From contig CAYNRB010000001.1 of assembly GCA_964399475.1 (NCBI GenBank), positions 1-53,998 on the forward strand: 53,998 nt of DNA, read 5' to 3'. This document shows positions 26,260-41,929 of this stretch, in pieces (the first letter of the stretch is position 1; each line of letters opens with the position of its first letter). The position numbers were made by a program, and so were the translations under genes. The DNA is from an uncultured Methylomarinum sp. Its GTDB lineage: Bacteria > Pseudomonadota > Gammaproteobacteria > Methylococcales > Methylomonadaceae. The notes beneath the pieces were generated by a model. That model was given only the letters and a program-made list of their open reading frames with translations. It was not told where the DNA came from and did not search any database.

Positions 26260-26674
26260 TTGTTTTCCTTATAAAACATGTTTCTTTTCAAAGCGTATTA
26301 ATATATCGAATAAACTATAAATCAATCAACATACGCTAAAAAGTCATAATTAAAGCGATGAATAAAATAAGGTATAATAACGCGAATTTAACATATAATC
26401 AGACATTTTGGAATGGTATATTAGCTTGTTATATTAATAATAGTAGAAAAAAAACAACAATAGTTAAGCCTTATAAGATTGTTATTGCTTAGGACAAGTC
26501 TGTAGCAAGATTTTTTCCATTGCTTCACCTCTAGAAAGCTAAACGCCTAAACCAAATTATAAACGTGCAGAACACAATCTCGCCAATTGGCTTGGCATAA
26601 AACATTTAGAATCGCTAAAGCTATTCTAATTATGCACGCCCTATATGCACTCCAATACTTTTAAAGATTCAAGA

Positions 26675-27532: not shown

Positions 27533-27548
27533 CCAACCTTCATTTATT

Positions 27549-28913
27549 ATGGGATTATCACTTAAAAATATTCGTCAGCATGCCATCAGTATTTTTCAGA
27601 ATGGAATTGATGCAGCAGACCCGTATCAAGCCGTTAAAAACTGTTTGACGGTAGCTGAAAATCATTTTGAAATAGCTTTAAATTTAAGTGATAAATCAAA
27701 AATACTTTGCGGAAGATGGTCAAAAATACATGTTATTGCATTTGGAAAAGCGGCATATAAAATGACCAAAGCAGTCACGGAACTCATTCCTAAACATCGT
27801 TTAGCAGGCATGCCATTAGCCATTACCAATTATGAGAATGCGCAAACCGCAACTGATTTTAAAGTCATTCTAGCGGGTCACCCTAGTCCAGATAACGCGG
27901 GTCTAGAAGCGGCTCAATTACTCATCAAGAAGCTTAATAACACAGAGAGTAATGAATTAGTACTGGTACTTATTTCGGGAGGCGGTTCGGCACTGATACC
28001 CTATCCTGCTTTTGGTATTACCTTGGAAGATAAGCAAATCACCACTAATTTATTGTTGGCTAGCGGAGCTGACATACAACAAATCAACTGTGTCAGGAAA
28101 CACCTCTCTCAAATTAAGGGAGGCAATTTAGCAAAATTGGCCACACCAGCAGATTTACATACTTTTATCTTGTCTGATGTTGTGGGCGATGATTTAAGCA
28201 CCATTGCAAGTGGCCCAACGGTTCCTGATGATTCTACCTTTGCCGAGGCAATAAAAATCCTAAAAGAAAAACATATTTGGGAAAAAACACCTCTTAATGT
28301 ACAAACATTACTAGAAAAAGGTGCCCAAGGGCATATCAAAGAAACGCCAAAACCTGGTCAATCCTTTTTCACAAAAAATACGCACACATTGGTTGGAAGT
28401 AACACTATCAGCCTTAACTCAATTATCAAAACTGCCCAAAAGCTTGGCTATGAAACTGACTTATACAGTCAGTCAGTTTCGGGTGAAGCCAGAGATTTTG
28501 CAGAACAATTAGTTGTTTATGCCAAAAGCCGAATAGAATCTGGCTTAAGCCAAGCGACAGCAATACTATCCGGCGGCGAAACAACGGTTACTCTCAAGGG
28601 AACCGGCAAAGGCGGACGAAACCAAGAAACAGCACTGGCTTTTGCAATTGCCGCAAAAAAACATAAACTAAAGGGGAAATGGACATTTCTTAGTGGCGGC
28701 TCGGATGGAATTGATGGCCCAACAGATGCTGCGGGTGGAATAGTTGACTCAGGCACACTCAAGCGAATGAAAATAGCTAAAGCAAACCCCAAAAACAGAT
28801 TAAAAAATAACGATTCATATACAGCCTTAAAAAAATCAGAGGATCTTGTTATTACCGGATCAACCGGAACTAATGTTGCTGATTTTCAAATACTACTAAT
28901 CCAGCCAGAATAA
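27549..28913 (+). CDS. glycerate 2-kinase (DUF4147 + MOFRL family; also annotated hydroxypyruvate reductase/TtuD)
   Basis: 454 aa. Motifs [19 protein letters not shown] and [20 protein letters not shown]...[16 protein letters not shown]. Lies between mtdA and glyA. Confidence 0.85.
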
Positions 28914-28929
28914 CCTATCAGGAGATATA

Positions 28930-30186
28930 ATGTTTAAAAAGTCCATGACCATAGCGGGTTTTGATAATGAATTATTTCAAGCCATGGAAGACGAACGTCA
29001 GCGCCAGGAAGACCATATTGAGCTAATTGCATCAGAAAACTATACTAGCCCTCGTGTTATGGAAGCGCAAGGCTCGCAATTGACCAATAAATATGCCGAA
29101 GGCTATCCGTCAAAACGTTATTATGGTGGCTGTGAGTTTGTAGATAAAGCTGAGCAATTAGCCATCGACCGTGTTAAAGAGTTGTACGGTGCAGACTATG
29201 CCAATGTGCAACCTCATTCCGGTTCACAAGCGAATATGGCTGTATACATGGCATTAGTTCAACCGGGAGATACTATTCTTGGTTTAAGTTTGGCTGATGG
29301 TGGTCACTTAACTCATGGCGCCAAACCTAATTTTTCTGGTAAAATCTACAATTCCATTCAGTATGGACTCCATCCTGATACAGGTGAAATTGATTATGAT
29401 CAAGTGGAAGCCTTAGCACTAGAGCATAAACCAAAAATGATTGTTGCCGGGTTTTCTGCCTATTCAAGAATTTGCGATTGGCAACGTTTTAGGGACATTG
29501 CTGACAAAGTAGGGGCTTATCTTTTTGTTGATATGGCGCATGTTGCTGGATTAATTGCAGCCGGTATATACCCTAACCCCGTTCCTTTTGCAGATGTTGT
29601 TACCAGCACAACGCATAAATCATTACGTGGCCCCAGAGGCGGCTTTATTATTTGTAAAAGCAACCCTGAATTAGAGAAAAAATTTAACTCCAATATTTTT
29701 CCAGGTATTCAGGGCGGCCCATTGATGCATGTCATTGCAGCCAAAGCTGTTGCTTTTAAAGAAGCTATGTTGCCAGAATTTGCACAATATCAGCAACAAG
29801 TAGTCCTTAATGCCCAGGCTATGGCCAGTGTTTTCATCAATCGTGGATTTGATGTCGTTTCGGGTGGCACTGACAATCACCTCATGTTGGTTTCCTTAAT
29901 ACCTAAAGGTATAACGGGAAAAGCGGCTGATGCTGCCCTAGGTAAAGCTCATATTACTGTCAATAAAAATGCTGTTCCTAACGACCCCGAATCACCTTTT
30001 GTTACCAGTGGAATTCGAGTGGGAACCCCAGCTCCAACATCACGAGGCTTTAAAGTCCCTCAGGTGACAGAAATCGCAAATATGATGTGTGATGTAATGG
30101 AAAATATGGACGATGAAAAAGTAATTTCTGCAGTACGTGACAAGGTTAGCCTGCTTTGTTCTCGCTTCCCTGTATACAGTGATTAA
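28930..30186 (+). CDS. glyA: serine hydroxymethyltransferase
   Basis: 418 aa. Motifs [44 protein letters not shown] and [14 protein letters not shown] (PLP Lys). Confidence 0.97.
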
Positions 30187-30214
30187 TCATCATTTTCGCT
30201 TACCTTCCGACAAT

Positions 30215-30236
30215 GTAGAGCGGACTTCAGTCCGCT
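30215..30236. repeat. short REP-like hairpin (GTAGAGCGGACTTCAGTCCGCT) 29 nt after the glyA stop
   Basis: Perfect 7-bp stem AGCGGAC/GTCCGCT with loop TTCA, followed by TTTCAATT. May act as a terminator or attenuator. Confidence 0.65.
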
Positions 30237-30388
30237 TTCAATTCACCATCATGGAAGACAATGTTCTGCATTACGAAAAACTAATAATAATGACAGAATG
30301 CACTGTATAGCAACCTGGATATTTATGAAAGATTCACAGGTTTATTATCACAAATTACCAAACTAATTTTACAGAACTACAAAACCTT

Positions 30389-30553
30389 TAAGGAGTGAGG
30401 ATTTAATAATATCCGAAAGTTTGGCGCAGGATTTTTGTTCGTCTTCAAGGCGTAGAAACGGGCGCATAGCGAGCTATGCAACTGTTTCTACAACGCAGAA
30501 GACGGACAAAAAGACAAGCCAAGATTCGGATATTATTAAATCCTCGCTCCTAA
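30389..30553 (+). repeat. LHE copy 4 (variant B, inner stem partly degraded)
   Basis: Outer arms identical to copy 3. Loop is GGGCGCATAGCGAGCTATGCAAC. The left inner arm carries mismatches. Confidence 0.85.
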
Positions 30554-30712
30554 GGTGGCTTCCAACAATAAATATGCCAGAATTGCGTAGGATTTTTGTT
30601 TCTGATTAAACAATCTCAAGAGGCGCATAGTTATTCTACGTAACGATTGAGATTGTTTGATCAGGAACAAAAAGACAAGAAAGTTTGGACTATTTATTGT
30701 TGGAAACCACCT
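30553..30712 (+). repeat. LHE copy 5 (variant C), abutting copy 4
   Basis: Outer arms AGGTGGCTTCCAACAATAAATA / TATTTATTGTTGGAAACCACCT. Bulge motifs GCGTAGGATTTTTGT and ACAAAAAGACAAGAAAGTTT. Loop GAGGCGCATAGTTATTCTACGTAAC. A third, self-complementary inner stem (CTGATTAAACAATCTCAA). Confidence 0.85.
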
Positions 30713-30748
30713 AAATGTATAAGAAAACTCAAATAACAGGAAATTACA

Positions 30749-32422
30749 ATGTCTGATATCGAAATCGCTCAAAAGGCAGAAATGAAACCTATTATTGATT
30801 TAGTCAAAGAAAAGTTTGGCATTCCAGCTGAACACATGGATCCTTATGGCCATTACAAAGCAAAAGTATCATTAGAATATCTGGACAGTTTAACGGATAG
30901 AAATGAAGGCAAGTTGATTTTAGTTACCGCTATCAGCCCCACACCTGCTGGCGAAGGTAAAACCACAACAACGGTAGGTTTAGGCGATGCAATGAATCGC
31001 CTTGGCAAGAAAACCATGATGTGTTTACGTGAACCTTCACTTGGGCCCTGTTTTGGTATGAAAGGTGGTGCCGCTGGTGGAGGATATTCTCAAGTAGTAC
31101 CCATGGAAGATATTAACTTACATTTTACCGGTGATTTTCACGCCATTGGAGTTGCCCACAACCTATTGGCAGCACTAATTGATAACCATATCAACCATGG
31201 TAATGAATTAGGAATAGACCCAAGAAGAATTCAGTGGAAACGTGTGGTGGATATGAATGACCGTGCCTTACGTAAAATTACGGTCGGCCAAGGTGGCCCA
31301 GCCAATGGATATTTACGAGAAGACGGTTATGATATTGTGGTGGCCTCTGAGGTTATGGCTATATTATGTCTAGCAACGAGTCGTTCGGATTTAAAAGAAC
31401 GTTTAGGGCGTATTGTAGTAGCCTACAAAGCAGATCTAAAAACACCTATCTATGCTAGTGACTTAAATGCTCAAGGCGCGATGGCAGCATTATTAAAAGA
31501 TGCTATTAAACCCAACTTTGTACAAACGTTGGAAAATAATGTGGTTATTGTGCACGGTGGCCCCTTTGCCAATATTGCACATGGCTGCAATACCGTTACC
31601 GCAACCAAAACAGCATTAAAACTGGCTGATTACACTATTACTGAAGCAGGATTTGGTGCAGACCTAGGTGCTGAAAAATTCATTAATATTAAATGTCGCA
31701 TGGCAGGCTTAAAACCTTCTGCGGTTGTTTTGGTTGCAACCATTCGCGCATTGAAATTCCATGGAGGTATCAACAAAGAAGATTTAAACAAGGAAAATCT
31801 TGCCGCATTAGAGCAAGGGTTTGTTAATCTTGAACGTCATTTAGAAAATATCACCAGTAATTATGGATTGCCTTGTATTATTTGCATCAATCACTTTAGT
31901 TTCGATACAGATGCGGAAATCAGATTATTAATAGAAAAATGCAAAGCCATTGGAGCAATATGTGTAGTTTCAAAACATTGGGCTGAAGGAGGAATAGGTG
32001 CGGAACAATTAGCAAAAGAAATCATTAATATCGTAGATAACAGGGAGCCAGGATGTAGTTTTGTCTATGATAATGATATGACGCTTTGGAGCAAAATGGA
32101 AGCTATATCCACTAAAATTTATGGCGCAAGCGGAATAACAGCAAGCCCTAAAATTCGTCAGGAAATTGAAGCCTTACAAGAAAAATACGGAAAATTCCCA
32201 GTTTGCATGGCTAAAACTCAAATGAGTTTTTCAACTGACCCTACAGTTAAAGGTGCACCCTCAGGTCATACAGTAGAAATCAGCGAAGTAAAACTGGCTA
32301 ACGGTGCTGGTTTTATTGTAGCGATAGCCGGAAACATGATGACCATGCCAGGATTACCCAAAATACCTGCTGCTGAACGTATTGATATTACTAATGAAGG
32401 TAAAATTACGGGGTTATTCTAG
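30749..32422 (+). CDS. fhs: formate--tetrahydrofolate ligase
   Basis: 557 aa. Motifs [42 protein letters not shown] and [13 protein letters not shown]. Confidence 0.97.
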
Positions 32423-32456
32423 TATTCCTGTCATATTGTTTTGTTGGATATGATAC

Positions 32457-32609
32457 TTTGCGCGGTTAGGGTTGCGGAATTCTAGCGGTCGGTTTTTGCC
32501 GATAAACTAAATTTCTGAAACAGTTGCACCGCTCATATGTGCCCGTACGTACCAGCACGTTGCTATCAGCAAAAACAACTCGCTTATTCTGCAACCGTGA
32601 CTGCGTAAT
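32457..32609 (+). repeat. divergent LHE-like long hairpin (variant D)
   Basis: Outer arms TTTGCGCGGTTAGGGTTGCGGAAT / ATTCTGCAACCGTGACTGCGTAA. Inner arms GCGGTCGGTTTTTGCCGATA / TATCAGCAAAAACAACTCGC. The apical region contains ..GTACGTACC, resembling the ..CTACGTAAC loop. Confidence 0.6.
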
Positions 32610-32671
32610 GTATATGCCTGACTCAAAATACCATCTTAGAACCAGAATAACATATCATTTAAATACACCAA

Positions 32672-32959
32672 TTAAATTACTGTAAAAGTCATTGCAAAAA
32701 TAAAAACAAAAATAACAAAAAGTGTAAACATTGCCCTTTTACTTAGTGAGCTTTTGAAATCCTCATATTGTGAGGATAATTCTTCTTTTTTGTCTTCCGC
32801 AAATATGATTTTTTTTAACTTACCTTTAAGCGTGTTTTTATCTCTTTCAGCTTCTTCCCTGGCAAGAATCTCGTCAATTTTAGAATTTAATCCCCCACAG
32901 TTTTGACATCTGGCCTCCGAATTGTCACGAGGATGACCACATTGGCTACACTGACTCAT
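32672..32959 (-). CDS. zinc-ribbon protein with C-terminal TM anchor
   Basis: 95 aa. Has CSQCGH..x11..CQNCGG (two CxxC pairs), a charged helical linker and a C-terminal hydrophobic helix (MFTLFVIFVFIFAMTFTVI). Lies 10 nt downstream of the kinase gene, so it is probably co-transcribed. Confidence 0.55.
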   Translation of the reverse strand: MSQCSQCGHPRDNSEARCQNCGGLNSKIDEILAREEAERDKNTLKGKLKKIIFAEDKKEELSSQYEDFKSSLSKRAMFTLFVIFVFIFAMTFTVI

Positions 32960-32969
32960 TTGTAATTCC

Positions 32970-34679
32970 TTAGTTTAAATATAAAAGTATTTTCTGAAAA
33001 TAACTACTTATTACGATTATGGCAGTTATTGCTAGTGATATCACTAGCCAACCCATTATTTTTTTTCTTTTGGCGAATTTTTGATCCCTAAGCGCATTTT
33101 CAATGGCTCTTTGTTTTGCCCATTTTTGAGTATTAGCCTCTTCTATTATCAGTTTTTGATGGTATTCAAGTAAGCTATCAATTTCATCTAATACTTGTCC
33201 CATATTATTTTGTCTGGAAAGCGGCAACCAATTTACCATTTTTTCTACCATTTTAGTTAGCTGCTCTGGCAAATCTGAAAATTTTGAAGTCACTGAGATT
33301 TTCTTATTTTTCCATTGAGGCAATGCACCTGTTAGCAATTGATATAGAATGATTCCTACTGAATAGATATCAGTACGCTTGGTTTTTACTTCACTTTGTA
33401 ATTTATACCAATTTCTAATGCCACTTTTTTGATAATGCGCATCAAGTCCAAAGTCTGTAAGCTTTATTAAGCCATTTTCATCATAAAGTACATTGCTAGG
33501 TCTCAGATTACCATGGATAAGATTATTTTGATGTGCAAAGGCCAACCCCATACAAATTTCCCGCACAGTCTTTAATGCCTCATTCCATGGACTTGCAATA
33601 ATTAACCGATCCTGTAATGCACCTCCGTTCAAATATTCCATGACAATAATATAGGATCGGTCATTTTTAGAAGTCCCATAGATTTTGGCAATATTCTTAT
33701 GGACTAGTGATTTTAGCAAATTTGTTTCATTAAAACCTTTACTCCAAATAGGTCTTTTTTTAATAATCAGCAGATTATTATCATTTTTATTTTCATATAA
33801 GTAAATAGCACTTTGCTTTTCTTCTTGTATAACATCCAATAAAGAAAATCGTGTTTTAAGGTTAGAAATTCCTTGTTCTGCTCGTTGTTTTTGTTCGTTT
33901 TTTAAATGGGTACCGCGGAGTAATTTCAGCAAAACATCTTTAACAATATCTACAGAAACAGGCCTGCTGTCTGGTTCCATATTGAGACACTGTAAAATTA
34001 TTTTATCTAATAAGGGATCAATTCCTGCGACATATTCAGAGGGTGACACAATATCGCCAGTTGGCTGTTGCCCCGCAAATAGAACGTACATAACAACCCC
34101 TAGAGAGTATATGTCACTCAGTTCAGTTACATCTGAAGATGAAATTTGCTGCTCTGGTGACATATAGCCCAATGTACCCATCAACAATTTGTCTGATGTT
34201 GTTGCATGATTGATATCGCAAAACTGGGCAATACCAAAATCTAGAACATGAGCATGAAACTCCCTATCTATAAAAATATTAGCGGGTTTAATATCTCTAT
34301 GGATTACGCCATTTTTATGCGCATAACTCAGCGCTTTACAGACCTGGATTATAATTTCCAGTTTTTTTATAATTTCTAGACTTCCCAATTGAATAAATTT
34401 CGCTAGATCCTGTCCTTCTAGATACTCCATAATAAAATAGGGTGTTTTGTCAGACAATAAACCACGATCTATAACATGGATTACATGGGGGTGATTCAAC
34501 TGTGCAATAATATACGACTCGCGTTCAAACAAATTTATCACTAATGGTTGATCTGCCAATTGTTGATGAATAACTTTGATCGCTACTTTTCGTTTAAGTG
34601 AGTTCTGTATACCTTGGTATACAGTTGCCATTCCACCAGTACCTATAGTCTCAATAATTGTATAACCAGGAATTTGCAT
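32970..34679 (-). CDS. membrane-anchored Hanks-type Ser/Thr protein kinase with a second, pseudokinase-like domain
   Basis: Domain 1 has GTGGMATVY, VAIKVI, HRDIKPANIF, DFGIA and GTLGYMSPE. Domain 2 (about aa 280-500) has LIHGNLRPSNVL, where HRD is replaced by HGN, plus TDFGL. C-terminal TM is WLVISLAITAIIVISSYF. Confidence 0.85.
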   Translation of the reverse strand: MQIPGYTIIETIGTGGMATVYQGIQNSLKRKVAIKVIHQQLADQPLVINLFERESYIIAQLNHPHVIHVIDRGLLSDKTPYFIMEYLEGQDLAKFIQLGSLEIIKKLEIIIQVCKALSYAHKNGVIHRDIKPANIFIDREFHAHVLDFGIAQFCDINHATTSDKLLMGTLGYMSPEQQISSSDVTELSDIYSLGVVMYVLFAGQQPTGDIVSPSEYVAGIDPLLDKIILQCLNMEPDSRPVSVDIVKDVLLKLLRGTHLKNEQKQRAEQGISNLKTRFSLLDVIQEEKQSAIYLYENKNDNNLLIIKKRPIWSKGFNETNLLKSLVHKNIAKIYGTSKNDRSYIIVMEYLNGGALQDRLIIASPWNEALKTVREICMGLAFAHQNNLIHGNLRPSNVLYDENGLIKLTDFGLDAHYQKSGIRNWYKLQSEVKTKRTDIYSVGIILYQLLTGALPQWKNKKISVTSKFSDLPEQLTKMVEKMVNWLPLSRQNNMGQVLDEIDSLLEYHQKLIIEEANTQKWAKQRAIENALRDQKFAKRKKIMGWLVISLAITAIIVISSYFQKILLYLN

Positions 34680-34760
34680 GCTTTTGTTTGAGAAATAACT
34701 AAATATAATTTATGAGTATCATTTATTATAGAATCAATACTAATAAAACGGGTAGAAATA

Positions 34761-35561
34761 ATGCAGAAAAATATATTTAATAAATATACTGCGACGGGAA
34801 TAACTGATGTTGGATGTGTGCGTAAACACAATGAAGATACCTACCTCATAGATAAGAAACTTGGCTTATTATTGGTAGCAGATGGAATGGGAGGTCATGA
34901 AGCTGGTGAAGTAGCTAGCAAAGAATCTATACGAATCATTCTGCAAATGCTTCGTATGCAACAGCCTGTTGAAGAAAATAAATCATGGTTTTATCGATTA
35001 CTACGCCTGTTTCAACATGATGATGTAGACACCCATGAAGAAGAAGATCATTTGGAAAAGGCTTTATTCGAAGCAAATAACTACATATTCCAACTGAACA
35101 TGGAAAGGGGAGCGCCTAGTGGCACAGGAATGGGCACCACCCTTGCTGGCTGCTGGATAGTGAGGCCTGACTTAATGCTAGTATTTCATATTGGTGATAG
35201 CCGAGTTTATAGGCTTAGAAATGGAGAACTAAAATTAATAACAAAAGATCACTCAGTTTTGCAGGATTGGCATGATAATGGAAAAATCGGCGAGCAACCC
35301 AAATCAAACGTAATTAATCGGGCTGTAGGCCCCTACCAGACAGTTACGCCTGAAATACAGGTAATTGATATTCAAAATACCGACAGCTTTTTAATTTGTT
35401 CAGATGGCTTATCAGATATGGTTGATGATCAAGAAATTGAAAAACAACTAGAAGGTTTAAACGCTAGACAAATTGATAATTACTCCCATAAATTACTGAT
35501 TTCTGCCCTAGCACTAGGAGGGAATGACAATATTACAATTGTTTTGTTAACGCACGATTAA
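34761..35561 (+). CDS. PP2C-family Ser/Thr protein phosphatase
   Basis: 266 aa. Motifs TDVGCVRKHNEDTY, LLLVADGMGGHEAGEVAS, GTTLAG, ICSDGLSD and GGNDNITIVLL. Confidence 0.9.
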   Translation: MQKNIFNKYTATGITDVGCVRKHNEDTYLIDKKLGLLLVADGMGGHEAGEVASKESIRIILQMLRMQQPVEENKSWFYRLLRLFQHDDVDTHEEEDHLEKALFEANNYIFQLNMERGAPSGTGMGTTLAGCWIVRPDLMLVFHIGDSRVYRLRNGELKLITKDHSVLQDWHDNGKIGEQPKSNVINRAVGPYQTVTPEIQVIDIQNTDSFLICSDGLSDMVDDQEIEKQLEGLNARQIDNYSHKLLISALALGGNDNITIVLLTHD

Positions 35562-35718
35562 CTTTGCTAATTAATAACGATGACTCCCAGCAATCTGACC
35601 ATCTACTTTTTTACAAAGTTGATTTAGTCATAAATGTGCTATATTTCTATATCAACAGATGACTTTCAAACAAAAAATCCTCTTGTGTAATTGATTATAT
35701 AAAGTTAAACACCCAAGT

Positions 35719-36426
35719 TCAATCAGATGAAAATTTGATAAATAATTTTTTAATTCTGATTTCATCAGAGGGTATTAATAAGCAACTTGAACTAATCACA
35801 CTTCCATTCAAGGTTACTTTTTTCTTTTTCACTGGACTAATATAAAACGAATGACCCACTTTATCAATTTCTGCAATATGAGCTGCAGTAAAAAAACCAC
35901 CTATCCGAATATCATTCTTTTTTGCCTTTCCAATAGAGTAGCTATCTTTAGTCAATAGCATTTTTTTTATTCCATTTAAATCACCTTTTACGATTAAATA
36001 GAAACTCTTCTGCTTGATATCTGAAGCAGCTTGAGATGTACCGGGTCCAGAAACTTTTGAAGATGACACCATAATTACAGTAGCATCACTCGACTCTTGT
36101 ACTGATACTGGAGCAGAACTATTTTGCTGTATCTGACTCCATTCCGAAATCTTTAAAATATGTTTACCAATAGTAACCGAATCTTCAAAACGAATTTTTT
36201 GACGTGTGCTTATCTTTTGGCTATTTAGAAATGTACCATTCGAACTATTCAAATCTTCAATGGTATATTGTCCGTTACTTACACTTATTACAGCATGAAA
36301 ACTTGAAACGCCCATATTATTGATAACAACTTCATTACTAGATGCTCTTCCAATACTAACAGTAACAGTTTTAATGGGTAAAGACTGCTTTAAGACGCCA
36401 TTAAAATAAATTTCAAGATAATTCAT
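35719..36426 (-). CDS. protein with two FHA domains
   Basis: 235 aa. FHA-1: SIGRASSNEVVINNMGVSSFHAVISVSNGQYTIEDLNSSNGTFLNSQKI. Ser-rich linker. FHA-2-like: YSIGKAKKNDIRIGGFFTAAHIAEIDKVGHSFYISPV..KVTLNGSVI. Confidence 0.8.
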   Translation of the reverse strand: MNYLEIYFNGVLKQSLPIKTVTVSIGRASSNEVVINNMGVSSFHAVISVSNGQYTIEDLNSSNGTFLNSQKISTRQKIRFEDSVTIGKHILKISEWSQIQQNSSAPVSVQESSDATVIMVSSSKVSGPGTSQAASDIKQKSFYLIVKGDLNGIKKMLLTKDSYSIGKAKKNDIRIGGFFTAAHIAEIDKVGHSFYISPVKKKKVTLNGSVISSSCLLIPSDEIRIKKLFIKFSSD

Positions 36427-36513
36427 AAGTTCAAGACCTTTTCTAAAAGTAACTCTATAATAAATGCCTACGCTGGATTCGTCTAGATAACTTTTATACT
36501 CAGGTACATAATC

Positions 36514-36834
36514 ATGCTAGATCTATTTCTCATCACACTCTTGCTATTAATTGGTTTTTATTGGTCCAATTCCATGAAAGCACGTGAAATTGCTTTTATC
36601 GCAGTAACCTCACACTGCCGAAAACTAGGCGTACAATTATTAGATGAATATGTTGCCTTGAATGGATTATGGTTTAAGGTAAATAGAGAAGGGGGAATTA
36701 GTGCTTGGCGATCCTATCTATTTGAATTCACTTCTACTGGAAATGATCGCTATAACGGTAAAATAATTATGCTAGGTGATAAAATATTAAATATTGAGAT
36801 GGATCCCTATAAAATTCTTGATGATGAATATTAA
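36514..36834 (+). CDS. DUF3301-like small membrane protein
   Basis: 106 aa. N-terminal TM, then the block AREIA...HC...LLD..VAL......R.......R.Y.FEF...G..RY.G typical of DUF3301. Confidence 0.55.
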   Translation: MLDLFLITLLLLIGFYWSNSMKAREIAFIAVTSHCRKLGVQLLDEYVALNGLWFKVNREGGISAWRSYLFEFTSTGNDRYNGKIIMLGDKILNIEMDPYKILDDEY

Positions 36835-36910
36835 TTTAGCATAATAATAGCCACTAACTTTCATATATTCAATGACTTACTAACTAGATCAATAGAAAAA
36901 CTGATTAGTT

Positions 36911-37117
36911 TGGTGGTTTGACGAAACAAAATCACCAACCTTGCTTGTCTTTTTGCTCCTGATCAAACGATCTTAATCGTTTCGTAGAAATGACTTTGCA
37001 CCTCTTGTGAAATAGTTCGGTCTAGGTCAGGATCCCCTAGGTAGAATAATACATGAGCAATTTTCAAGAAATAAAAATCCTGCGCAATCTTGGTAACTTT
37101 ATTCCGTCAAATCACCT
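36911..37117 (-). repeat. LHE copy in reverse orientation, degenerate and enlarged (about 205 bp)
   Basis: The reverse complement carries ACCAAGATTGCGCAGGATTTTT, CAAGAGGTGCAAAGTCATTTCTACGAAACG (loop homologue) and CAAAAAGACAAGCAAGGTT. Outer arms GGTGGTTTGACG / CGTCAAATCACC. Holds an extra ~45 bp insert. Confidence 0.65.
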
Positions 37118-37371
37118 TAGTAAAAAAAATCATCTTGTTGGTAAATTCCCAATTGTAATAGATATCATTTATTGTTCAGACAGAAAGTTAATTGCTTTTG
37201 GAATATAGAACGAAAAGCAAAAATATTCTATACACTTTCTGGTGATATACTCCCCTTGATCATATAAAAGTAAGTAATGTTTGATTCATAAAACCAACTA
37301 TTATTTAACAATCACTATTTTCTAATAGATTACAGTCTAAATCTTTAACATTAACTAATGATATTTTTACT

Positions 37372-37716
37372 ATGAGCAATAAAACTCGTCATACTAAAAC
37401 CTCTACCCAAACTCAGGATGAGGCATTAAAAGTTGCTAAGGCTACGCAACGCCCAGGACAAGCTAAAGAACAAACCAAACTAATTGCCCAGGGAATAGAA
37501 AAAGGAATCTATCATTATAAAAAACAACAAAAAGCTAAAGTAAGAATAATTAATAAAAAAAAACATAAAACTGGAAAGAATAACGATGATCAATTTCAAA
37601 CCAATCAACATTCATCTGAAGTAAATCCAAATTGCATGCGTTCATCTTTGCCATGGATACTATTAATTATCAGCTGGATAGGCTTTTTTATTCATTATTC
37701 TAAGGATTTATGGTGA
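37372..37716 (+). CDS. DUF2956-like small protein with C-terminal TM
   Basis: 114 aa. The block EALKVAKATQRPGQAKEQTKLIAQGIEKGIYHYKKQQKAK matches my memory of the DUF2956 consensus. C-terminal hydrophobic helix. Confidence 0.45.
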   Translation: MSNKTRHTKTSTQTQDEALKVAKATQRPGQAKEQTKLIAQGIEKGIYHYKKQQKAKVRIINKKKHKTGKNNDDQFQTNQHSSEVNPNCMRSSLPWILLIISWIGFFIHYSKDLW

Positions 37717-38086
37717 TAACTAATCTAACGAAAGTAGGCTTTTCATAAAATAAATACCCAGATGGAGTATTTCAAAGGAAGAAGAACATATGGAATTTAA
37801 CAATATCAATAGTCTCAAATTAACGTAAGTAACGATAAATTTCTCTTCCCTCTAGCTTAGATAAATCTAAAGCTATTCCCATTACTTTTAAAAATCATTA
37901 AAGTACACCTTCCATAAAAACTATCTAGAACTGAAGTATATGGATTAAATAACCTTCAGAACACAAAACAATCGCAATCTATTCCTTAAATTATTTCGAA
38001 GCTTCATAACTGAGTAATGGGTCAAGTGGCAATAGATACACTTGCATCTATTGCCACTATTTATAAGTATGTAATGTAAATTTGTA

Positions 38087-41000
38087 TTACTTTACTTTAT
38101 TACTAGTAAACCAGGGAGTACCATCTTTTTTCAAATACATTTTATGCATTTCTTGTTGAGTAAAAGGTCTGGATCCAATTCTACCAAAAACTGCAATTTG
38201 ACCGCCTGTTTCATCTACTGCTCGATCTCTATCTAAACCTTTAGACAAGGCTAATGCAATATTTGAAGTTGGATACGAAGCTATTAGTTCAGGCTTAGGT
38301 TCTGGGCTAAAGCCATAAAACTTAGGCTGACTATCCGGTGATGTTAGTTGCAATACTTTCAATCCATTTTTACCATCAGCAACATAACCAATCAAAGAAG
38401 CATTAGTAGAAGCGACAATAACATCTCTTGCATCATTGAGTTGACCATTAGCTGTAAACAACTGTAGCAGCTTAGGACTTTCTGGTTTTTCAACATTTAT
38501 GATAGCTAAACCCTGCGAGCCTGCTGCCACATAAGCATAGGTTCTAGCAACATAAATTCGATTCGCATCCGTTAAAGCAACCGAGACACCACTGATTAAT
38601 TTTGCTTTTTCAGGCGTTGTTACATCAATAACTTTAAAACCATCTGCATCGGTTACAAATAGATATCTAAATTGTAAAGCTGTAGATTTAGCATTATTCA
38701 AGGGTATCACTGCCGCAACTTTTGGCGATAGCGGCGAATCCAAATTGATAATAATCAAACCGACATCCGCTGTAATATAGGCATAATAGCCACCTAGCGT
38801 TATATGTTTAGCTCCTTTTAGAATATTATCCCCATTCCATGTTAATGCACGTGTAAGAAAGTTATTTCTCGCTTTTCCGTCCGACAATGTATTTACATCG
38901 GTCAGAATTAAGCCTTCTTCTGCATCAACAATAAAGGCATAGTTATAGATTGGATGGAAATCCTGTTCCTGATTCGTCTCATTCATCAATTTACTCATCG
39001 CTTCGGCAGAAAGACCATAGTTACTTTCATAGCGGCGTTGTGGATGAATGGGTTGATTGGTAGGTAAAGCCATACAAGTCGCATTTTTAGAACTTATATG
39101 AGTATCATGTCCCAATGGTGAAAATGGCGCCGTTATAATTCGTTGAGAAATACCTTTATTGGCAATACTGGCAACATCATAGACTCTAAATCCACCTGAG
39201 CCTTCGGCAACATATAAATATTCTCCGCGTAGTTGTAAGCAGCTTGCTACATCAGAACTATGACTATGTACTCTTTTTAAGACTTGTTTATTATTTTGAT
39301 GATCCTTATACCAATCAGGGTAAGCATATTTATGTAAATAGCTACCTATCACGGCTTGAGGTTCTTCCCACTCAGTTACTTGAATAGCTGATATACCACT
39401 TTCTGTTCCCACATAGGCATTATATCCAACAAAGTTTACAAAATTGGTACCCTGTAATAACAGTTGAGCCATGATTGCATTATTATCATTTTCTGCAGAT
39501 AAATGACAATCTTCACATTGTTTGGTTTCTGTTTTACGCGTTGTATGTGGAAAATTGGGGGCGAATGCCTGTGCACTAAAACCACTCGATGAAACTGGAG
39601 GTTGCTGGATATAAATCAGTTCCCTGTTTGCATTTCTGGATGAAAGTATCAAGGCTGAAGATGAACGCACAGGAACTATTCTATTGCCCTTAACCTGTCC
39701 ATGACGACCAATTTGAAACATTTGGTCACGAACTACTTGTGGATTATAAGTTGCGTAATTACGCGCTTCTCCACCTTCATAATGAAGTGTGTCTGTTTTC
39801 CAGTTTGCCTGAATAGGTAAATGACAACCGGCACAACTGGTCACCCACGAACTATGACAAGTAAAGCAGGTCATATTTTCATTTTTATGAGCTCTATCTT
39901 CAGGAGCTACATCGGTTCCCCAAGCTAATGTCTCTGAATTTTTCGATACTAATTTTGCTCGAGCTGCTTTGGCATTATAGGTGGTATGAGCAGGATTAAC
40001 GGTATCTTTGACTAGACTCAGCTCCCATTCCTTATCACTAAATAAGGCAGAACGTTGATACAACTTATTGCCACGCCATTCAAATCGTAATTTACCATCC
40101 TGATTCCTTAATGTAGAAAGATCAGTACCACCAATTGCAGCAGCAGGGCCACTGGTTCTTAAATTTGGATAGGCATCAGCTGTACCATGACAATCTATGC
40201 AATCAACTTCTATTGCTGCTGCTACTTCACCATATAAATGACCATTGCCATGCGAATCTTGAGCAAAGTGACAATCTACACAGTGCATCCCTACGTCCAT
40301 GTGAATAGATGACAGATGAACAGCTTTATTGAATTTTTCTGGATCAGTATCACTGACTTCATTACCTGATGCATCTAATAAGGTACCTTTACGATCACGC
40401 TTAAAAACTGCTCTAAAATTCCAGCCATGTCCGTGATAGTCTGCAAATTGAGTGTCTTTAAGCTTAGGATTCAAATCGGAAACATTTTTGACAAATTCAA
40501 GGTCTTTCCATTTACCTCTTGCTGCTGCTTCCTCAGGATTCCTTTCATTGATTTTTCTGACTTCCGCATGACTCAAAATTTGCTCAGGATCTGGGTTTGC
40601 TCCTGCTCTTACTTGATCACTATTCAAATATCTTTGCTTTTCAGGCCACATATGCGGCGCATCCGATTCATAATCCCACATCGTATAACCCATGAAACTA
40701 TTTACAAAAATATTAGGTTGATGCATATGACAAATCATACATTGACTGGTCGGAATTGCTCTGGTGAATTGATGTTTAATAGGATGTCCCGACTCATTTT
40801 TAGAAATAGTCGGATCTATGGTCTGAGTTTTTCCTGAATGTCCAGCTTTGGCATAAGGACCAGAATGTTTTGGATCCCGATCATTTGCATAGACTACGTG
40901 ACAAGACCCACAACCTGATGTTCGATAATCTCCAGGTTGATCATTGGTCCCTAAAAACCATGTAAAAGGATCATTAAGACGAGTTTTGTGTATGTTAAGA

Positions 41001-41878
41001 ACGGGAACTGAAATTCGTCCACCGGTACCAGAACCTCGATTAGATTGCTTAATATCTGGACGACCCGGCTCTTCAAGTCGTTGAATCAAACCTAAGGCAT
41101 TAGGCAACCCAGTCTCAGGAAATAAATTAGTTATATTACGCCCACCTGCTTCAAAGACTCTGAAAACATCACCCTGTGGCATGTTTTCCCATCTTGGCAA
41201 CGGAATTAATGCAGGTACAATCCCTTTAGCGATCATATTTTCATCAGGTTCATGTGGATTAACCAACTTCTTGGGTAATCCTTCGCGCGTATATGATTCG
41301 CCCATAAAATAGCGTTTATATGGAACAATTCCATTATTGTATGCAGCTCCGCCCCACAACATAGCACCGGTAGCCATTAAACTTCTTTCAGATGCTTCAA
41401 TTATCTTCATATGGCATGCACCACATGACTCTCTTACAATCCGATAATCACTAGGATTAACAAAACGAATATATTCTGGTGATTCTCTATTCAAAAGGGT
41501 AAAACTATGCTTTGGATTCGCACTACTGGGATAATTCCACTCATTTGGTAAAGTAGGGATGACATGTGCTTTATTCATTGAAAGCTGGTATTCCAAATCT
41601 TTATCTGCACTGTTTTCCGGCTTAAACTCATCAGCGTTACCACCATGACAATCTACGCAACCCAAAGGCACTGCTTCAGTTTGATGCATAGATTGACTGT
41701 CTGTTTCGATATGACAACTCAAACAACCTCTAGACTTGGCATCAACTGCTTGCGGATCTTGGAATTGAGGTGCAATCAATGTTGAAGAATCTTTATCAAC
41801 ATCAAAAGCAGCATATCCGTTTATTGATACCAATAGGAATGCTATAAAAGAAAATATAATCAGCTTACATTTATTCAT
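38087..41878 (-). CDS. secreted decahaem c-type cytochrome fused to a C-terminal LVIVD-repeat beta-propeller
   Basis: 1263 aa with a signal peptide (IIFSFIAFLLVSINGYAA). Ten CxxCH motifs at aa 52, 74, 152, 323, 380, 533, 560, 671, 682 and 788. Residues ~880-1185 carry at least six LVIVD-like repeats (YLYVAEGSGGFRVYDV, YAFIVDAEEGLILTDV, YAYITADVGLIIINLDSP, YLFVTDADGFKVIDVTTP, YAYVAAGSQGLAIINVEKP, IGYVADGKNGLKVLQLTSP). Confidence 0.85.
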   Translation of the reverse strand: MNKCKLIIFSFIAFLLVSINGYAAFDVDKDSSTLIAPQFQDPQAVDAKSRGCLSCHIETDSQSMHQTEAVPLGCVDCHGGNADEFKPENSADKDLEYQLSMNKAHVIPTLPNEWNYPSSANPKHSFTLLNRESPEYIRFVNPSDYRIVRESCGACHMKIIEASERSLMATGAMLWGGAAYNNGIVPYKRYFMGESYTREGLPKKLVNPHEPDENMIAKGIVPALIPLPRWENMPQGDVFRVFEAGGRNITNLFPETGLPNALGLIQRLEEPGRPDIKQSNRGSGTGGRISVPVLNIHKTRLNDPFTWFLGTNDQPGDYRTSGCGSCHVVYANDRDPKHSGPYAKAGHSGKTQTIDPTISKNESGHPIKHQFTRAIPTSQCMICHMHQPNIFVNSFMGYTMWDYESDAPHMWPEKQRYLNSDQVRAGANPDPEQILSHAEVRKINERNPEEAAARGKWKDLEFVKNVSDLNPKLKDTQFADYHGHGWNFRAVFKRDRKGTLLDASGNEVSDTDPEKFNKAVHLSSIHMDVGMHCVDCHFAQDSHGNGHLYGEVAAAIEVDCIDCHGTADAYPNLRTSGPAAAIGGTDLSTLRNQDGKLRFEWRGNKLYQRSALFSDKEWELSLVKDTVNPAHTTYNAKAARAKLVSKNSETLAWGTDVAPEDRAHKNENMTCFTCHSSWVTSCAGCHLPIQANWKTDTLHYEGGEARNYATYNPQVVRDQMFQIGRHGQVKGNRIVPVRSSSALILSSRNANRELIYIQQPPVSSSGFSAQAFAPNFPHTTRKTETKQCEDCHLSAENDNNAIMAQLLLQGTNFVNFVGYNAYVGTESGISAIQVTEWEEPQAVIGSYLHKYAYPDWYKDHQNNKQVLKRVHSHSSDVASCLQLRGEYLYVAEGSGGFRVYDVASIANKGISQRIITAPFSPLGHDTHISSKNATCMALPTNQPIHPQRRYESNYGLSAEAMSKLMNETNQEQDFHPIYNYAFIVDAEEGLILTDVNTLSDGKARNNFLTRALTWNGDNILKGAKHITLGGYYAYITADVGLIIINLDSPLSPKVAAVIPLNNAKSTALQFRYLFVTDADGFKVIDVTTPEKAKLISGVSVALTDANRIYVARTYAYVAAGSQGLAIINVEKPESPKLLQLFTANGQLNDARDVIVASTNASLIGYVADGKNGLKVLQLTSPDSQPKFYGFSPEPKPELIASYPTSNIALALSKGLDRDRAVDETGGQIAVFGRIGSRPFTQQEMHKMYLKKDGTPWFTSNKVK

Positions 41879-41929
41879 GATAGTTGTACGAATGAATTAG
41901 AAAAAGTCAACATTACAATTTACCTAGAT

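What the first reader, a model, noticed from the sequence alone, without database searches (positions are those of the whole stretch)
32672..36426. Stand-alone Hanks kinase / PP2C / dual-FHA / Zn-ribbon signalling module without its usual partners
**Seen in sequence.**
- The kinase and the Zn-ribbon-TM gene are 10 nt apart on the minus strand.
- A PP2C phosphatase gene is divergent from them.
- A two-FHA-domain protein gene is convergent.

**Established knowledge.** In proteobacteria this trio is best known as the PpkA/PppA/Fha1 switch of type VI secretion. No T6SS gene is present in this window.

**Inference.** The only other FHA protein in the window is the FHA-decahaem cytochrome at 52066. 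The module may therefore regulate that redox system, or the adjacent C1 metabolism genes.
Basis: partly seen in the sequence, partly recalled or inferred. Interest (0 to 1): 0.65.

Follow-up and report, generated by a model that had tools for sequence, protein, structure and literature searches.

The report
Portable tandem kinase–pseudokinase signalling cassette
The four genes are real, but the functional unit is a three-gene cassette (a fused kinase–pseudokinase, a phosphatase and a two-FHA adaptor) that sits in different genome locations in related bacteria, so its position next to the cytochrome and C1 genes here is most likely incidental.

Summary
All four ORFs exist with the stated spacing and orientation, and no T6SS gene lies in the window.

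- The 569-aa "kinase" is a tandem protein. It has an active PknB-like Hanks domain, then a pseudokinase domain (HGN replaces HRD, no Gly-rich loop, Lys/Asn/DFG kept), then a C-terminal membrane anchor.
- This architecture is conserved at 45–74% identity in at least 275 species across several phyla.

**Neighbourhood**
- Across 83 loci, the only recurrent neighbours are multi-FHA proteins (26 of 52 loci with full flanks) and PP2C (13 of 52).
- Methylococcaceae relatives keep the same FHA/PP2C/kinase order and orientation, but in four different genomic contexts.
- No other locus carries cytochrome, C1 or T6SS genes.

**The adaptor**
- It has one canonical FHA domain, one degenerate FHA domain, and an invariant linker Thr116.

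**The Zn-ribbon gene**
- It belongs to a separate small family, found next to DUF3301 and never next to a kinase.
- Here the trio sits exactly between the Zn-ribbon gene and DUF3301.

**The cytochrome cluster**
- It recurs elsewhere without any kinase within 10 kb.
- Its FHA-like domain lacks the phosphate-binding Ser.

**Verdict**
- This is a self-contained phospho-switch with an unknown target. It is a new variant of a known kind.
- The proposed link to the cytochromes is not supported.

The parts
32970..34679 (-). Tandem kinase-pseudokinase, 569 aa, tail-anchored in the membrane
   Evidence: Pfam Pkinase matches in two stretches. AF2 gives pLDDT 88.7 and pTM 0.83.
33885..34679 (-). Active PknB-like Hanks kinase domain (aa 1-265): GTGGMA, K35, HRDIKPAN, DFG, SPEQ
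   Evidence: All catalytic residues are invariant in 60 homologues. The best NCBIfam match is PknB_PASTA_kin at 356.7 bits, below the 450 cut-off. Foldseek top hits are PknB, PknS and Stk1.
33210..33848 (-). Pseudokinase domain (aa 278-490): no Gly-rich loop, IIKK, HGNLRPSN in place of HRDxxxxN, DFG kept
   Evidence: H389 and G390 are invariant. N391, K307/K308 and N396 are at least 90% conserved. D409 is invariant. The domain is 24% identical to the N-terminal kinase domain.
32997..33056 (-). C-terminal transmembrane helix (aa 542-561), leaving an 8-residue extracytoplasmic tail
   Evidence: The sequence is MGWLVISLAITAIIVISSYF. AF2 models one long helix over residues 493-568. A hydrophobic C-terminal segment is present in all aligned homologues.
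34680..34760 (.). 81-nt divergent promoter region between the kinase and PP2C genes, with a conserved TATAAT-like box
   Evidence: Alignment with L006, L007, L098 and L005.
34761..35561 (+). PP2C Ser/Thr phosphatase, 266 aa, with metal-binding motifs RKHNED, DGMGG, GDSR, SDGL and GGNDN
   Evidence: Pfam PP2C_2. NCBIfam Stp1_PP2C scores 197.6 bits, below the 230 cut-off.
35719..36426 (-). Adaptor protein, 235 aa: canonical FHA, disordered linker, degenerate FHA
   Evidence: Pfam FHA matches in two stretches. AF2 gives two beta-sandwich domains with pLDDT above 90 and a linker (residues 100-138) below 50.
36130..36426 (-). N-terminal canonical FHA domain (G26 R27, S41..H44, N63 G64 T65)
   Evidence: G26, R27, S41, N63, G64 and T65 are invariant and H44 is at least 90% conserved across 14 partners from four lineages.
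36079..36081 (-). Codon of Thr116 in the linker motif D-A-T-V-I-M, the candidate phospho-acceptor and FHA ligand
   Evidence: T116 is invariant in A5, within the motif [DE]xT[VM]x[LVM]. AF2 places a short strand at residues 116-117 inside the otherwise disordered linker.
35722..36009 (-). C-terminal degenerate FHA domain (GK, no SxxH)
   Evidence: Alignment A5 shows only G166, G177, L217, D221 and I223 invariant. The fold is confident.
32672..32959 (-). Zn-ribbon tail-anchored protein, 95 aa. It is co-transcribed here but is probably an older neighbour, not a cassette member
   Evidence: The family has 21 cluster representatives, four invariant Cys and a conserved TM. In other contigs it sits next to DUF3301 or other genes and never next to a kinase.
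36514..36834 (+). DUF3301 gene, which neighbours the Zn-ribbon gene in other genomes and marks the other edge of the cassette
   Evidence: Pfam DUF3301 E=1.3e-29. It is adjacent to the Zn-ribbon gene in L090-L093.

Best explanation
**What it is**
The unit is a three-gene Ser/Thr phospho-switch cassette at 32970-36426.
1. A tail-anchored cytoplasmic protein carries an active PknB-like kinase domain rigidly coupled to a pseudokinase domain. The pseudokinase keeps the nucleotide and metal ligands (Lys, Asn, DFG-Asp) but has lost the catalytic Asp (HGN) and the Gly-rich loop.
2. A PP2C phosphatase is transcribed divergently from the kinase.
3. A soluble adaptor has a canonical pThr-binding FHA domain, a disordered linker with an invariant Thr (T116 in [DE]xT[VM]x[LVM]), and a second FHA fold that has lost the pThr-binding residues.

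**Shown**
- The domain architectures and which residues are conserved.
- The conserved pairing of tandem kinase with multi-FHA proteins, with or without PP2C, across phyla.
- The different chromosomal location of the trio in each relative examined.

**Inferred mechanism**
- The pseudokinase acts as an allosteric or dimerisation partner, or as a docking platform, for the kinase domain. There is no extracytoplasmic sensor, so the input is cytoplasmic or membrane-borne.
- The activated kinase autophosphorylates and phosphorylates T116.
- The canonical FHA domain reads a pThr, either on the kinase or on T116 in cis or trans, as in GarA/OdhI. This changes what the degenerate FHA domain can bind.
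- PP2C resets the switch.
- The output target is unknown.

**Neighbours**
- In this genome the trio lies between a Zn-ribbon gene and DUF3301, which are direct neighbours elsewhere.
- The Zn-ribbon, C1 and cytochrome genes are therefore incidental neighbours.
For: **Architecture and conservation**
- Two Pkinase stretches are matched.
- The invariant and near-invariant residues come from alignments of 18 and 60 homologues.
- AF2 gives pTM 0.83 for the two-domain protein, and the inter-domain linker is conserved (L251, G256 and H258 invariant).

**Family spread**
- 7895 hits have E <= 1e-10. Full-length relatives of about 580 aa occur in Methylococcaceae, Thermodesulfobacteriota, Nitrospinota, Nitrospirota, Eisenbacteria, Oleiphilaceae, Hahellaceae and others.
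- At least 275 GTDB species carry a relative.

**Neighbourhood**
- An FHA gene lies within 3 kb in 26 of 52 loci with full flanks, and PP2C in 13 of 52. No other gene family recurs beyond lineage-level synteny.
- The partners have 2-3 FHA domains in most lineages.
- The trio has the same order and orientation in L005, L006, L007 and L098, but the flanks differ.

**Adaptor**
- The N-terminal FHA is canonical, the C-terminal FHA is degenerate, and T116 is invariant.
- AF2 gives two folded domains joined by a disordered linker, with a short strand at residues 116-117.
- Foldseek hits include GarA, OdhI, FhaA and the DgcB FHA domain bound to its own phosphorylated tail.

**Other**
- The PP2C metal-binding motifs are intact.
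- The Zn-ribbon gene is adjacent to DUF3301 elsewhere.
Against: - No experiment exists, and no substrate or output can be named.
- Half of the related kinases have no FHA or PP2C gene within 3 kb. Examples are Methyloprofundus L001 and L010. The cassette is therefore not obligatory.
- My ORF calling is unreliable in high-GC loci, so the counts are lower bounds.
- T116 as a phospho-site rests only on conservation and motif resemblance.
- The Oleiphilaceae and Hahellaceae partners have a different layout: degenerate FHA first, a 'DPNKTIIR' linker, and a TM anchor.
- In the window the Zn-ribbon gene is 10 nt downstream of the kinase with its own ribosome-binding site, so it is co-expressed here.
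- Other lineages also have unrelated Zn-ribbon proteins near the kinase. A functional tie is therefore not excluded.
- The 'insertion' inference rests on two independent DUF3301/Zn-ribbon contexts, from distant relatives at 36-40% identity.
Confidence: 0.55

Rival explanations
1. The module regulates the adjacent multihaem-cytochrome/porin cluster (38087-53811). The kinase would create a pThr that is read by the FHA-like domain of the decahaem protein at 52066.
For: - The cluster starts 1.7 kb from the cassette. The 581-aa cytochrome has an N-terminal FHA hit (E=2.6e-7), followed by a TM segment and 10 CXXCH motifs.
- One related orphan kinase, L101, sits next to a dihaem cytochrome c gene.
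Against: - The adjacency is unique to this window. None of the 82 other kinase loci has homologues of the 1263-aa cytochrome. The four hits to the 802-aa flavoprotein were not examined and look generic.
- Close relatives carry the trio in other contexts.
- The cytochrome cluster is conserved in L086, L087 (Porphyrobacter) and L088 with no Hanks kinase or PP2C within the 10-kb flanks or, for L088, on its 9-kb contig.
- The FHA-like domain has Ala at the phosphate-binding Ser position and no NG motif. Many homologues lack a Pfam FHA hit.
- The cluster has its own likely input, two cNMP-binding domains.
Confidence: 0.1
2. It is a PknB/PstP/FhaA-FhaB-like controller of cell envelope growth or division. 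The membrane-anchored kinase would phosphorylate envelope-synthesis proteins and the FHA adaptor would recruit them, as in the PknB-MviN pseudokinase-FhaA system.
For: - The best curated matches are PknB_PASTA_kin (356.7 bits), Stp1/IreP PP2C (197.6 bits) and FhaB/FipA (83 bits).
- The kinase is membrane-anchored.
- The link between a pseudokinase and an FHA domain has a precedent in MviN-FhaA (PMC12599244).
Against: - All three scores are below the curated cut-offs (450, 230 and 125).
- There is no PASTA or any other extracytoplasmic domain. The tail is 8 residues.
- No rodA, pbpA, murJ or division genes lie next to the cassette in the window or recur in the 83 loci.
Confidence: 0.12
3. It is an anti-phage or stress 'guard' kinase, in the manner of the bacterial defence kinases PD-T4-6 and Stk2 and of plant tandem kinase-pseudokinase immune receptors. 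The pseudokinase would act as a decoy or sensor.
For: - PADLOC PD-T4-6 and mad6 models hit the protein at 330 bits.
- The family is rare and patchy across phyla, and it sits in a different place in each relative.
- One 72%-identical relative lies directly beside Mu-like prophage genes (GemA, Mor, terminase, portal) on an IMG/VR contig.
Against: - The PADLOC hits cover only the generic kinase domain (residues 4-290). Any Hanks kinase would match.
- Neighbours in the 83 loci are housekeeping genes, not defence islands.
- GC3 of the trio is within the range of the window's genes, so it is not recently foreign DNA.
- 45-50% identity across phyla, with a dedicated phosphatase and adaptor, fits a homeostatic switch better.
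- There is only one prophage-adjacent case.
Confidence: 0.1
4. It is the threonine-phosphorylation switch (PpkA/PppA/Fha1 type) of a T6SS encoded elsewhere in the genome.
For: The same three domain types are present. The T6SS FHA model TIGR03354 gives a weak hit (E=1.4e-8).
Against: - That hit scores 35 bits against a cut-off of 120.25.
- The kinase has a second kinase fold in place of PpkA's periplasmic vWA domain.
- The adaptor has two FHA folds and lacks Fha1's long C-terminal region.
- No T6SS gene is in the 54-kb window or recurs in the 83 related loci.
Confidence: 0.03
5. The Zn-ribbon tail-anchored protein is a true fourth component, such as a membrane substrate or a co-anchor of the kinase.
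For: - The gap is 10 nt, with a ribosome-binding site and the same strand as the kinase.
- Both proteins are tail-anchored.
- Unrelated Zn-ribbon proteins recur near tandem kinases in other lineages. These are Zn-ribbon-FHA fusions in L003, L011, L018, L028 and L038, and Zn-ribbon-2TM proteins in L052, L054 and L057.
Against: - The gene is absent downstream of the kinase in all close relatives (L005-L008, L098).
- None of the 83 kinase loci other than the window has a homologue.
- Five independent contexts of the Zn-ribbon family contain no kinase, and two place it beside DUF3301.
- Zn-ribbons are common enough that some of the recurrences may be chance.
Confidence: 0.2

Closest known systems
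PpkA / PppA / Fha1 threonine-phosphorylation pathway of type VI secretion (Pseudomonas aeruginosa, Agrobacterium)
   Same: A Hanks kinase, a PP2C phosphatase and an FHA protein are encoded together, and the kinase is membrane-anchored.
   Different: - PpkA has one kinase domain plus a periplasmic vWA sensor. This protein has a kinase plus a pseudokinase and only an 8-residue outside tail.
- Fha1/TagH has a single FHA domain. This adaptor has one canonical and one degenerate FHA domain, and it scores below the TIGR03354 cut-off.
- No T6SS genes are present here or near any relative.
Mycobacterial PknA/PknB - PstP - FhaA/FhaB(FipA) cluster, and the PknB - MviN pseudokinase - FhaA circuit
   Same: - The kinase domain is PknB-like and gives the best sequence and fold matches.
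- The phosphatase is Stp1/PstP-like and the FHA domain is FhaB-like.
- A pseudokinase domain and an FHA reader work in the same circuit.
   Different: - There are no PASTA repeats and no rodA, pbpA or murJ genes.
- The pseudokinase is fused to the kinase itself, not to a flippase.
- All NCBIfam scores are below their cut-offs.
- The organisms are Gram-negative.
GarA / OdhI (FHA proteins with a self-binding phospho-Thr switch); Bdellovibrio DgcB FHA with its phosphorylated tail
   Same: - A small FHA protein has a conserved Thr in a disordered segment next to a canonical FHA domain.
- The fold matches these structures.
   Different: - The Thr lies in an inter-domain linker, not in an N-terminal ETTS tail.
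- There is an extra degenerate FHA domain.
- The OdhI model scores 48 bits against a cut-off of 200.
- No link to 2-oxoglutarate dehydrogenase is known.
Eukaryotic tandem kinase-pseudokinase proteins: JAK family (JH2-JH1), plant tandem kinase proteins (WTK1/Yr15, Sr62), HER3-type Asp-to-Asn pseudokinases
   Same: - An active kinase and a pseudokinase lie on one polypeptide.
- The catalytic Asp is replaced by Asn while the nucleotide ligands are kept.
- The HGN motif resembles the JAK JH2 catalytic loop. This is recalled from memory and was not tested here.
   Different: - There is no detectable specific homology. The two domains are 24% identical to each other, and the PDB hits are generic.
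- The protein is bacterial, tail-anchored and of Ser/Thr type.
- It is paired with PP2C and FHA partners.
Described bacterial pseudokinase families (ActPs1-3, GLW, DLHK, CP1, DYD) in the 2025 bSTK atlas and review
   Same: It is a Hanks-fold domain with a degraded catalytic motif. Like GLW, it is found in membrane-anchored proteins of Proteobacteria.
   Different: - GLW replaces HRD by G-L-W and the beta3 Lys by Leu/Trp. This domain has H-G-N and keeps the Lys and the DFG.
- Neither paper contains the word 'tandem'.

Membership tests
Hanks-type (eukaryotic-like) Ser/Thr protein kinase | Pkinase fold with Gly-rich loop, VAIK Lys, HRD Asp, DFG Asp and the APE/SPE motif | tested here: met
   For the N-terminal domain, PF00069 has E=1.9e-75. 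GTGGMA, K35, HRDIKPAN, DFG and SPEQ are invariant in 60 homologues.
Pseudokinase (sequence definition) | Kinase fold lacking at least one of the VAIK Lys, HRD Asp or DFG Asp | tested here: met
   The second domain has HGN in place of HRD (H389 and G390 invariant, N391 at least 90%) and no Gly-rich loop. The Lys and DFG are kept. Lack of catalysis itself cannot be tested here.
PP2C (PPM) phosphatase | PP2C fold with the conserved Asp/Gly metal-binding motifs | tested here: met
   PF13672 has E=2.2e-15. The motifs RKHNED, DGMGG, GDSR, SDGL and GGNDN are present.
FHA domain (pThr reader) | Conserved Gly-Arg, Ser-x-x-His and Asn-Gly residues that contact phosphothreonine | tested here: met
   This is met for the N-terminal domain only: G26, R27, S41, N63 and G64 invariant and H44 at least 90% conserved. 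The C-terminal domain has the fold but lacks Ser and His.
T6SS threonine-phosphorylation pathway (PpkA/PppA/Fha1) | Encoded within or beside a T6SS gene cluster | tested here: not met
   No T6SS family occurs among the window ORFs. None recurs in the 83 related loci.
T6SS threonine-phosphorylation pathway (PpkA/PppA/Fha1) | The FHA protein belongs to the TagH/Fha1 family (TIGR03354) | tested here: not met
   It scores 35 bits against a cut-off of 120.25.
T6SS threonine-phosphorylation pathway (PpkA/PppA/Fha1) | The kinase has a periplasmic vWA sensor domain after the TM helix | tested here: not met
   There is no VWA hit. Only 8 residues follow the TM helix.
PknB/Stk1 PASTA kinase module | Meets NF033483 and has extracellular PASTA repeats | tested here: not met
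   It scores 356.7 bits against a cut-off of 450, matching the kinase domain only, and there is no PASTA hit.
FhaB/FipA (Rv0019c) and GarA/OdhI | Meets the NCBIfam equivalog cut-offs (125 and 200 bits) | tested here: not met
   The scores are 83 and 48 bits.
GLW bacterial pseudokinase family | A GLW motif replaces HRD, and Leu/Trp replaces the beta3 Lys | tested here: not met
   This domain has HGN and keeps K307/K308. The family definition is taken from PMC12599244.
PD-T4-6 / MADS defence kinases | Full-length match to the defence-system model, plus a defence-island or system context | tested here: inconclusive
   PADLOC scores of 330 bits cover only the generic kinase domain. There are no partner defence genes, and the neighbours are housekeeping genes. 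One relative lies beside prophage genes.

The most novel reading that the evidence does not exclude
The tandem kinase-pseudokinase (HGN type) and its FHA/pseudo-FHA adaptor form a distinct bacterial signalling system that no kinome survey has described. It is rare, occurs in several phyla and occupies different genomic sites in related genomes. In it a fused pseudokinase controls a Hanks kinase allosterically, a bacterial counterpart of JAK-like or plant tandem-kinase logic. The output would pass through a phospho-switchable adaptor and not through a transcription factor.
Probability: 0.3. Interest if true: 0.7.

Novelty: new variant of a known kind. Interest (0 to 1): 0.5.

Why it matters
Hanks kinase / PP2C / FHA modules are well known in bacteria. 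Tandem kinase-pseudokinase proteins have so far been described in eukaryotes, such as the JAK family and the plant immune tandem kinases.

Two recent surveys of bacterial kinases and pseudokinases never use the word 'tandem'. A conserved bacterial family with this layout would offer a simple, genetically tractable system for studying how a pseudokinase controls its kinase. The family has its own phosphatase and a matching 'reader plus pseudo-reader' adaptor.

For this genome the practical message is negative. The cassette should not be annotated as a regulator of the cytochrome or serine-cycle genes on the basis of proximity.

Tried and rejected
- **Genome-level co-occurrence.** I could not test the kinase against the cytochrome cluster or T6SS.
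- **More Zn-ribbon contexts.** The metagenome scan failed on the full alignment. With a two-sequence alignment it returned one 22-residue match.
- **AF2 of the cross-phylum adaptor alignment A5.** I used 26 database homologues instead.
- **Whole-architecture structural match.** Foldseek against the PDB found only single kinase or single FHA domains, with TMq at most 0.40.
- **Insertion scars and ncRNAs.** The only repeats at the cassette edges are short AT-rich chance matches. There were no Rfam hits in 30000-39000. The promoter and terminator scan was not above the shuffled expectation.
- **Recent horizontal acquisition.** I rejected this because GC3 of the trio (0.22-0.30) lies within the window's range.
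- **Membership of the atlas families PTCK and GLW.** I considered this and rejected GLW on motif grounds. PTCK could not be checked because no supplement is held.
- **First python run.** Its nested-interpreter step failed and was redone.

Full report
**Observation**

The four ORFs are present as described.
- A 95-aa protein (32672-32959, minus strand) has an N-terminal CxxC..CxxC motif and a C-terminal hydrophobic helix.
- A 569-aa kinase lies at 32970-34679 (minus strand).
- A 266-aa PP2C lies at 34761-35561 (plus strand).
- A 235-aa protein with two FHA matches lies at 35719-36426 (minus strand).

Pfam confirms the domains. The kinase stop and the Zn-ribbon start are 10 nt apart, with an AAGGA ribosome-binding site between them. 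The PP2C gene is divergent from the kinase across an 81-nt spacer and convergent with the FHA gene across 157 nt.

Annotation of the other large ORFs gives this map:
- a flagellar cluster;
- housekeeping genes (ffh, rimM, trmD, rplS, xerD);
- serine-cycle and folate C1 genes (mdh, mtdA, glycerate kinase, glyA, ftfL) ending at 32422;
- DUF3301 and DUF2956;
- a multihaem-cytochrome cluster from 38087 to 53811.

No T6SS family was hit. The window is from a low-GC Methylococcaceae organism, and the nearest relatives are Methylomarinum MAGs.

Pfam matches the kinase model in two stretches. Alignments of 18 and 60 full-length homologues show the following.
- The N-terminal domain has every catalytic residue invariant: the Gly-rich loop, K35, HRDIKPAN, DFG and SPEQ.
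- A strongly conserved linker follows.
- The second kinase fold has no Gly-rich loop. Its HRD motif is replaced by HGN (H389 and G390 invariant, N391 at least 90% conserved). It keeps the beta3 Lys, the catalytic-loop Asn and the DFG Asp.

By the usual sequence definition this second domain is a pseudokinase that may still bind nucleotide. The two domains are only 24% identical to each other. A single C-terminal TM helix (aa 542-561) leaves eight residues outside the cell, so there is no extracytoplasmic sensor.

AlphaFold2 models the whole protein confidently, with pLDDT 88.7 and pTM 0.83. Foldseek finds only single-domain matches (PknB, PknS, Stk1) with TM-score at most 0.40 on the query. 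The best curated family matches are PknB-type, but they fall below the cut-off.

**Distribution and neighbourhood**

The family is conserved at 45-74% identity over the full length of about 580 aa. It occurs in Methylococcaceae, Thermodesulfobacteriota, Deferrisoma, Nitrospinota, Nitrospirota, Eisenbacteria, Oleiphilaceae, Hahellaceae, Pleionea and others. A pattern scan of one genome per GTDB species found 275 species with a relative. That is a lower bound, but it is still a small fraction of the 185,579 species scanned.

I clustered all ORFs from 83 loci with up to 10 kb of flank on each side.
- Only two families recur beside the kinase. FHA proteins lie within 3 kb in 26 of 52 loci with full flanks, and PP2C in 13 of 52.
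- All other recurrent neighbours are lineage-specific housekeeping genes. They include an ABC ATPase, AcrB, a sigma-54 response regulator, acyl-CoA ligase, ferrochelatase and DDAH.
- The FHA partners usually have two or three FHA domains.

In the Methylococcaceae relatives the trio keeps the window's order and orientation: FHA, then PP2C on the opposite strand, then the kinase. The flanks differ in each case:
- transaldolase and YaeQ in L098, and YaeQ downstream of the kinase in L007 and L008;
- a threonine-synthase-like gene in L006;
- glycolate-oxidase subunits and mfd in L005.

Some relatives have an orphan kinase: L001 beside dnaX, L010, and L101 beside Mu-like prophage genes.

A TATAAT-like box is conserved in the short divergent spacer. 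GC3 of the trio lies within the range of the window's genes, so the cassette is not recently foreign DNA.

**The adaptor**

I aligned 14 partners from Methylococcaceae, Nitrospinota, Thermodesulfobacteriota and Deferrisomatales.
- The N-terminal FHA domain keeps the canonical pThr-binding residues (G26, R27, S41, H44, N63, G64, T65).
- The C-terminal domain keeps only structural residues and has lost the Ser and His.
- A Thr in the linker (T116 in the window) is invariant, within the motif [DE]xT[VM]x[LVM]. An acidic residue upstream and a hydrophobic residue at +3 are what Hanks kinases and FHA domains typically prefer. That preference is established knowledge and was not tested here.

AF2 gives two confident beta-sandwich domains joined by a disordered linker (residues 100-138). 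A short strand sits exactly at residues 116-117. Foldseek matches single FHA domains, including GarA, OdhI, FhaA and the DgcB FHA domain bound to its own phosphorylated tail.

The Oleiphilaceae, Hahellaceae and Pleionea partners are arranged differently. The degenerate FHA comes first, then a canonical FHA, then a conserved 'DPNKTIIR' linker and a TM anchor. The theme of one reader domain, one pseudo-reader domain and a conserved Thr recurs in both layouts.

**The Zn-ribbon gene**

A full HMMER scan found a small family of 21 cluster representatives, each about 95 aa. They share four invariant Cys residues and a conserved C-terminal TM helix, so the gene is real.
- None of the other 82 kinase loci has a homologue, and the close relatives lack it downstream of the kinase.
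- In L090-L092 it directly follows DUF3301. In L093 it is divergent from DUF3301 across 75 nt.
- In L094 and L095 it lies beside an RnfB-like gene, and in L096 and L097 beside YkuD.
- The closest homologue (53% identity, L089) has no kinase upstream.

In the window the trio lies exactly between the Zn-ribbon gene and DUF3301, which have the same divergent topology as in L093. The simplest reading is that the trio came to lie between two older neighbours, and that the Zn-ribbon gene is now read through from the kinase promoter.

The case is not closed. Unrelated Zn-ribbon proteins also occur near tandem kinases in other lineages.

**The cytochrome hypothesis**

The genes from 38087 to 53811 form a conserved unit:
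- a 1263-aa multihaem protein with LVIVD repeats;
- a porin-like protein;
- an HbpS-like protein;
- a c554-like cytochrome;
- an 802-aa flavoprotein with two cNMP-binding domains and Fe-S clusters;
- a 312-aa membrane protein;
- the FHA-like decahaem protein.

The same gene set occurs on an 826-kb metagenome contig and in Porphyrobacter sp. LM 6. A Methylococcaceae MAG contig (L088, 9 kb) carries the c554-to-decahaem half before it ends. None has a Hanks kinase or PP2C within the 10-kb flanks or, for L088, on the contig.

The FHA-like domain of the cytochrome keeps the Gly-Arg and His residues. It has Ala at the phosphate-binding Ser position and lacks the Asn-Gly motif. Many homologues do not register as FHA at all.

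Proximity to the kinase cassette is unique to this window. The same holds for the C1 genes.

**Mechanism proposed**

The domain composition, residue conservation, conserved pairing and varying genomic location are shown.

The mechanism is inferred, as follows.
- The pseudokinase regulates or scaffolds the fused kinase. The recalled analogies are JAK JH2, which also has an HGN loop, and HER3.
- The kinase autophosphorylates and phosphorylates T116 of the adaptor.
- The canonical FHA domain binds a pThr on the kinase or on T116, as in the GarA/OdhI switch. This alters what the degenerate FHA domain engages.
- PP2C resets the system.
- With no outside domain, the input must be cytoplasmic or membrane-borne. 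The output is unknown.

**Comparison with known systems and novelty**

The module works like the PpkA/PppA/Fha1 and PknB/PstP/FhaA-FhaB modules, but it fails their membership tests. A 2025 atlas of 300,000 bacterial Ser/Thr kinases and a 2025 review of bacterial pseudokinases list seven pseudokinase families. Neither uses the word 'tandem'. The proteobacterial GLW family differs in its defining motifs. PADLOC hits to defence kinases cover only the generic kinase domain.

I rate this a new variant of a known kind. It is of moderate interest because no function can yet be assigned.

Noticed in passing
window 38087-53811: This is a conserved multihaem-cytochrome/porin cluster. It holds a 1263-aa MHC with LVIVD repeats, a 612-aa porin-like protein, a 663-aa HbpS-like protein, OmpA, a c554-like cytochrome, an 802-aa flavoprotein with two cNMP-binding domains and 4Fe-4S clusters, a 312-aa membrane protein and an FHA-like decahaem protein. 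The same gene set occurs in L086 and in Porphyrobacter sp. LM6 (L087), where it is flanked by a CHASE2-guanylate cyclase; the 9-kb contig L088 carries part of it. It looks like a cNMP-controlled trans-envelope electron conduit in a methanotroph.
   Followed up: partly
window 52066-53811 (aa 25-75): The FHA-like domain of the decahaem cytochrome keeps GR and His. It has Ala at the phosphate-binding Ser position and no NG motif. This holds in most of 117 homologues, so the domain is probably not a pThr reader.
   Followed up: partly
window 4698-7274 and 10606-14697: Two very large flagellins, 858 aa and 1363 aa, have normal N- and C-terminal flagellin domains and huge central regions. They lie in a fliD/flaG/fliS cluster.
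   Followed up: no
window 32672-32959 and 36514-36834; L090-L093: The 95-aa Zn-ribbon tail-anchored protein and DUF3301 form a conserved gene pair in other metagenome contigs. Both are uncharacterised small membrane proteins.
   Followed up: partly
L003, L011, L018, L028, L038; L052, L054, L057 (also L034, L045, L062): Other lineages carry unrelated Zn-ribbon proteins near the tandem kinase. There are Zn-ribbon-FHA fusions of about 175-185 aa, and Zn-ribbon proteins with two TM helices of 120-164 aa. This may be convergent association or chance.
   Followed up: partly
L101 (IMG/VR contig 3300013233_000817), 858-9849: A tandem kinase 72% identical in the pseudokinase region has no PP2C or FHA beside it. 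It sits between a dihaem cytochrome c gene and Mu-like prophage genes (HU, GemA, Mor, amidase, terminase, portal).
   Followed up: partly
window 34680-34760; L006, L007, L098: A TATAAT-like box is conserved in the short divergent spacer between the PP2C and kinase genes.
   Followed up: no
window 24404-25159: A 251-aa ORF has no Pfam match and the lowest GC of the window's genes (0.316). It lies between an lpxA-like gene and mdh.
   Followed up: no
window 25282-32422: Serine-cycle and tetrahydrofolate C1 genes are clustered (mdh, mtdA, glycerate kinase, glyA, ftfL). This is consistent with a methylotrophic or methanotrophic host.
   Followed up: no
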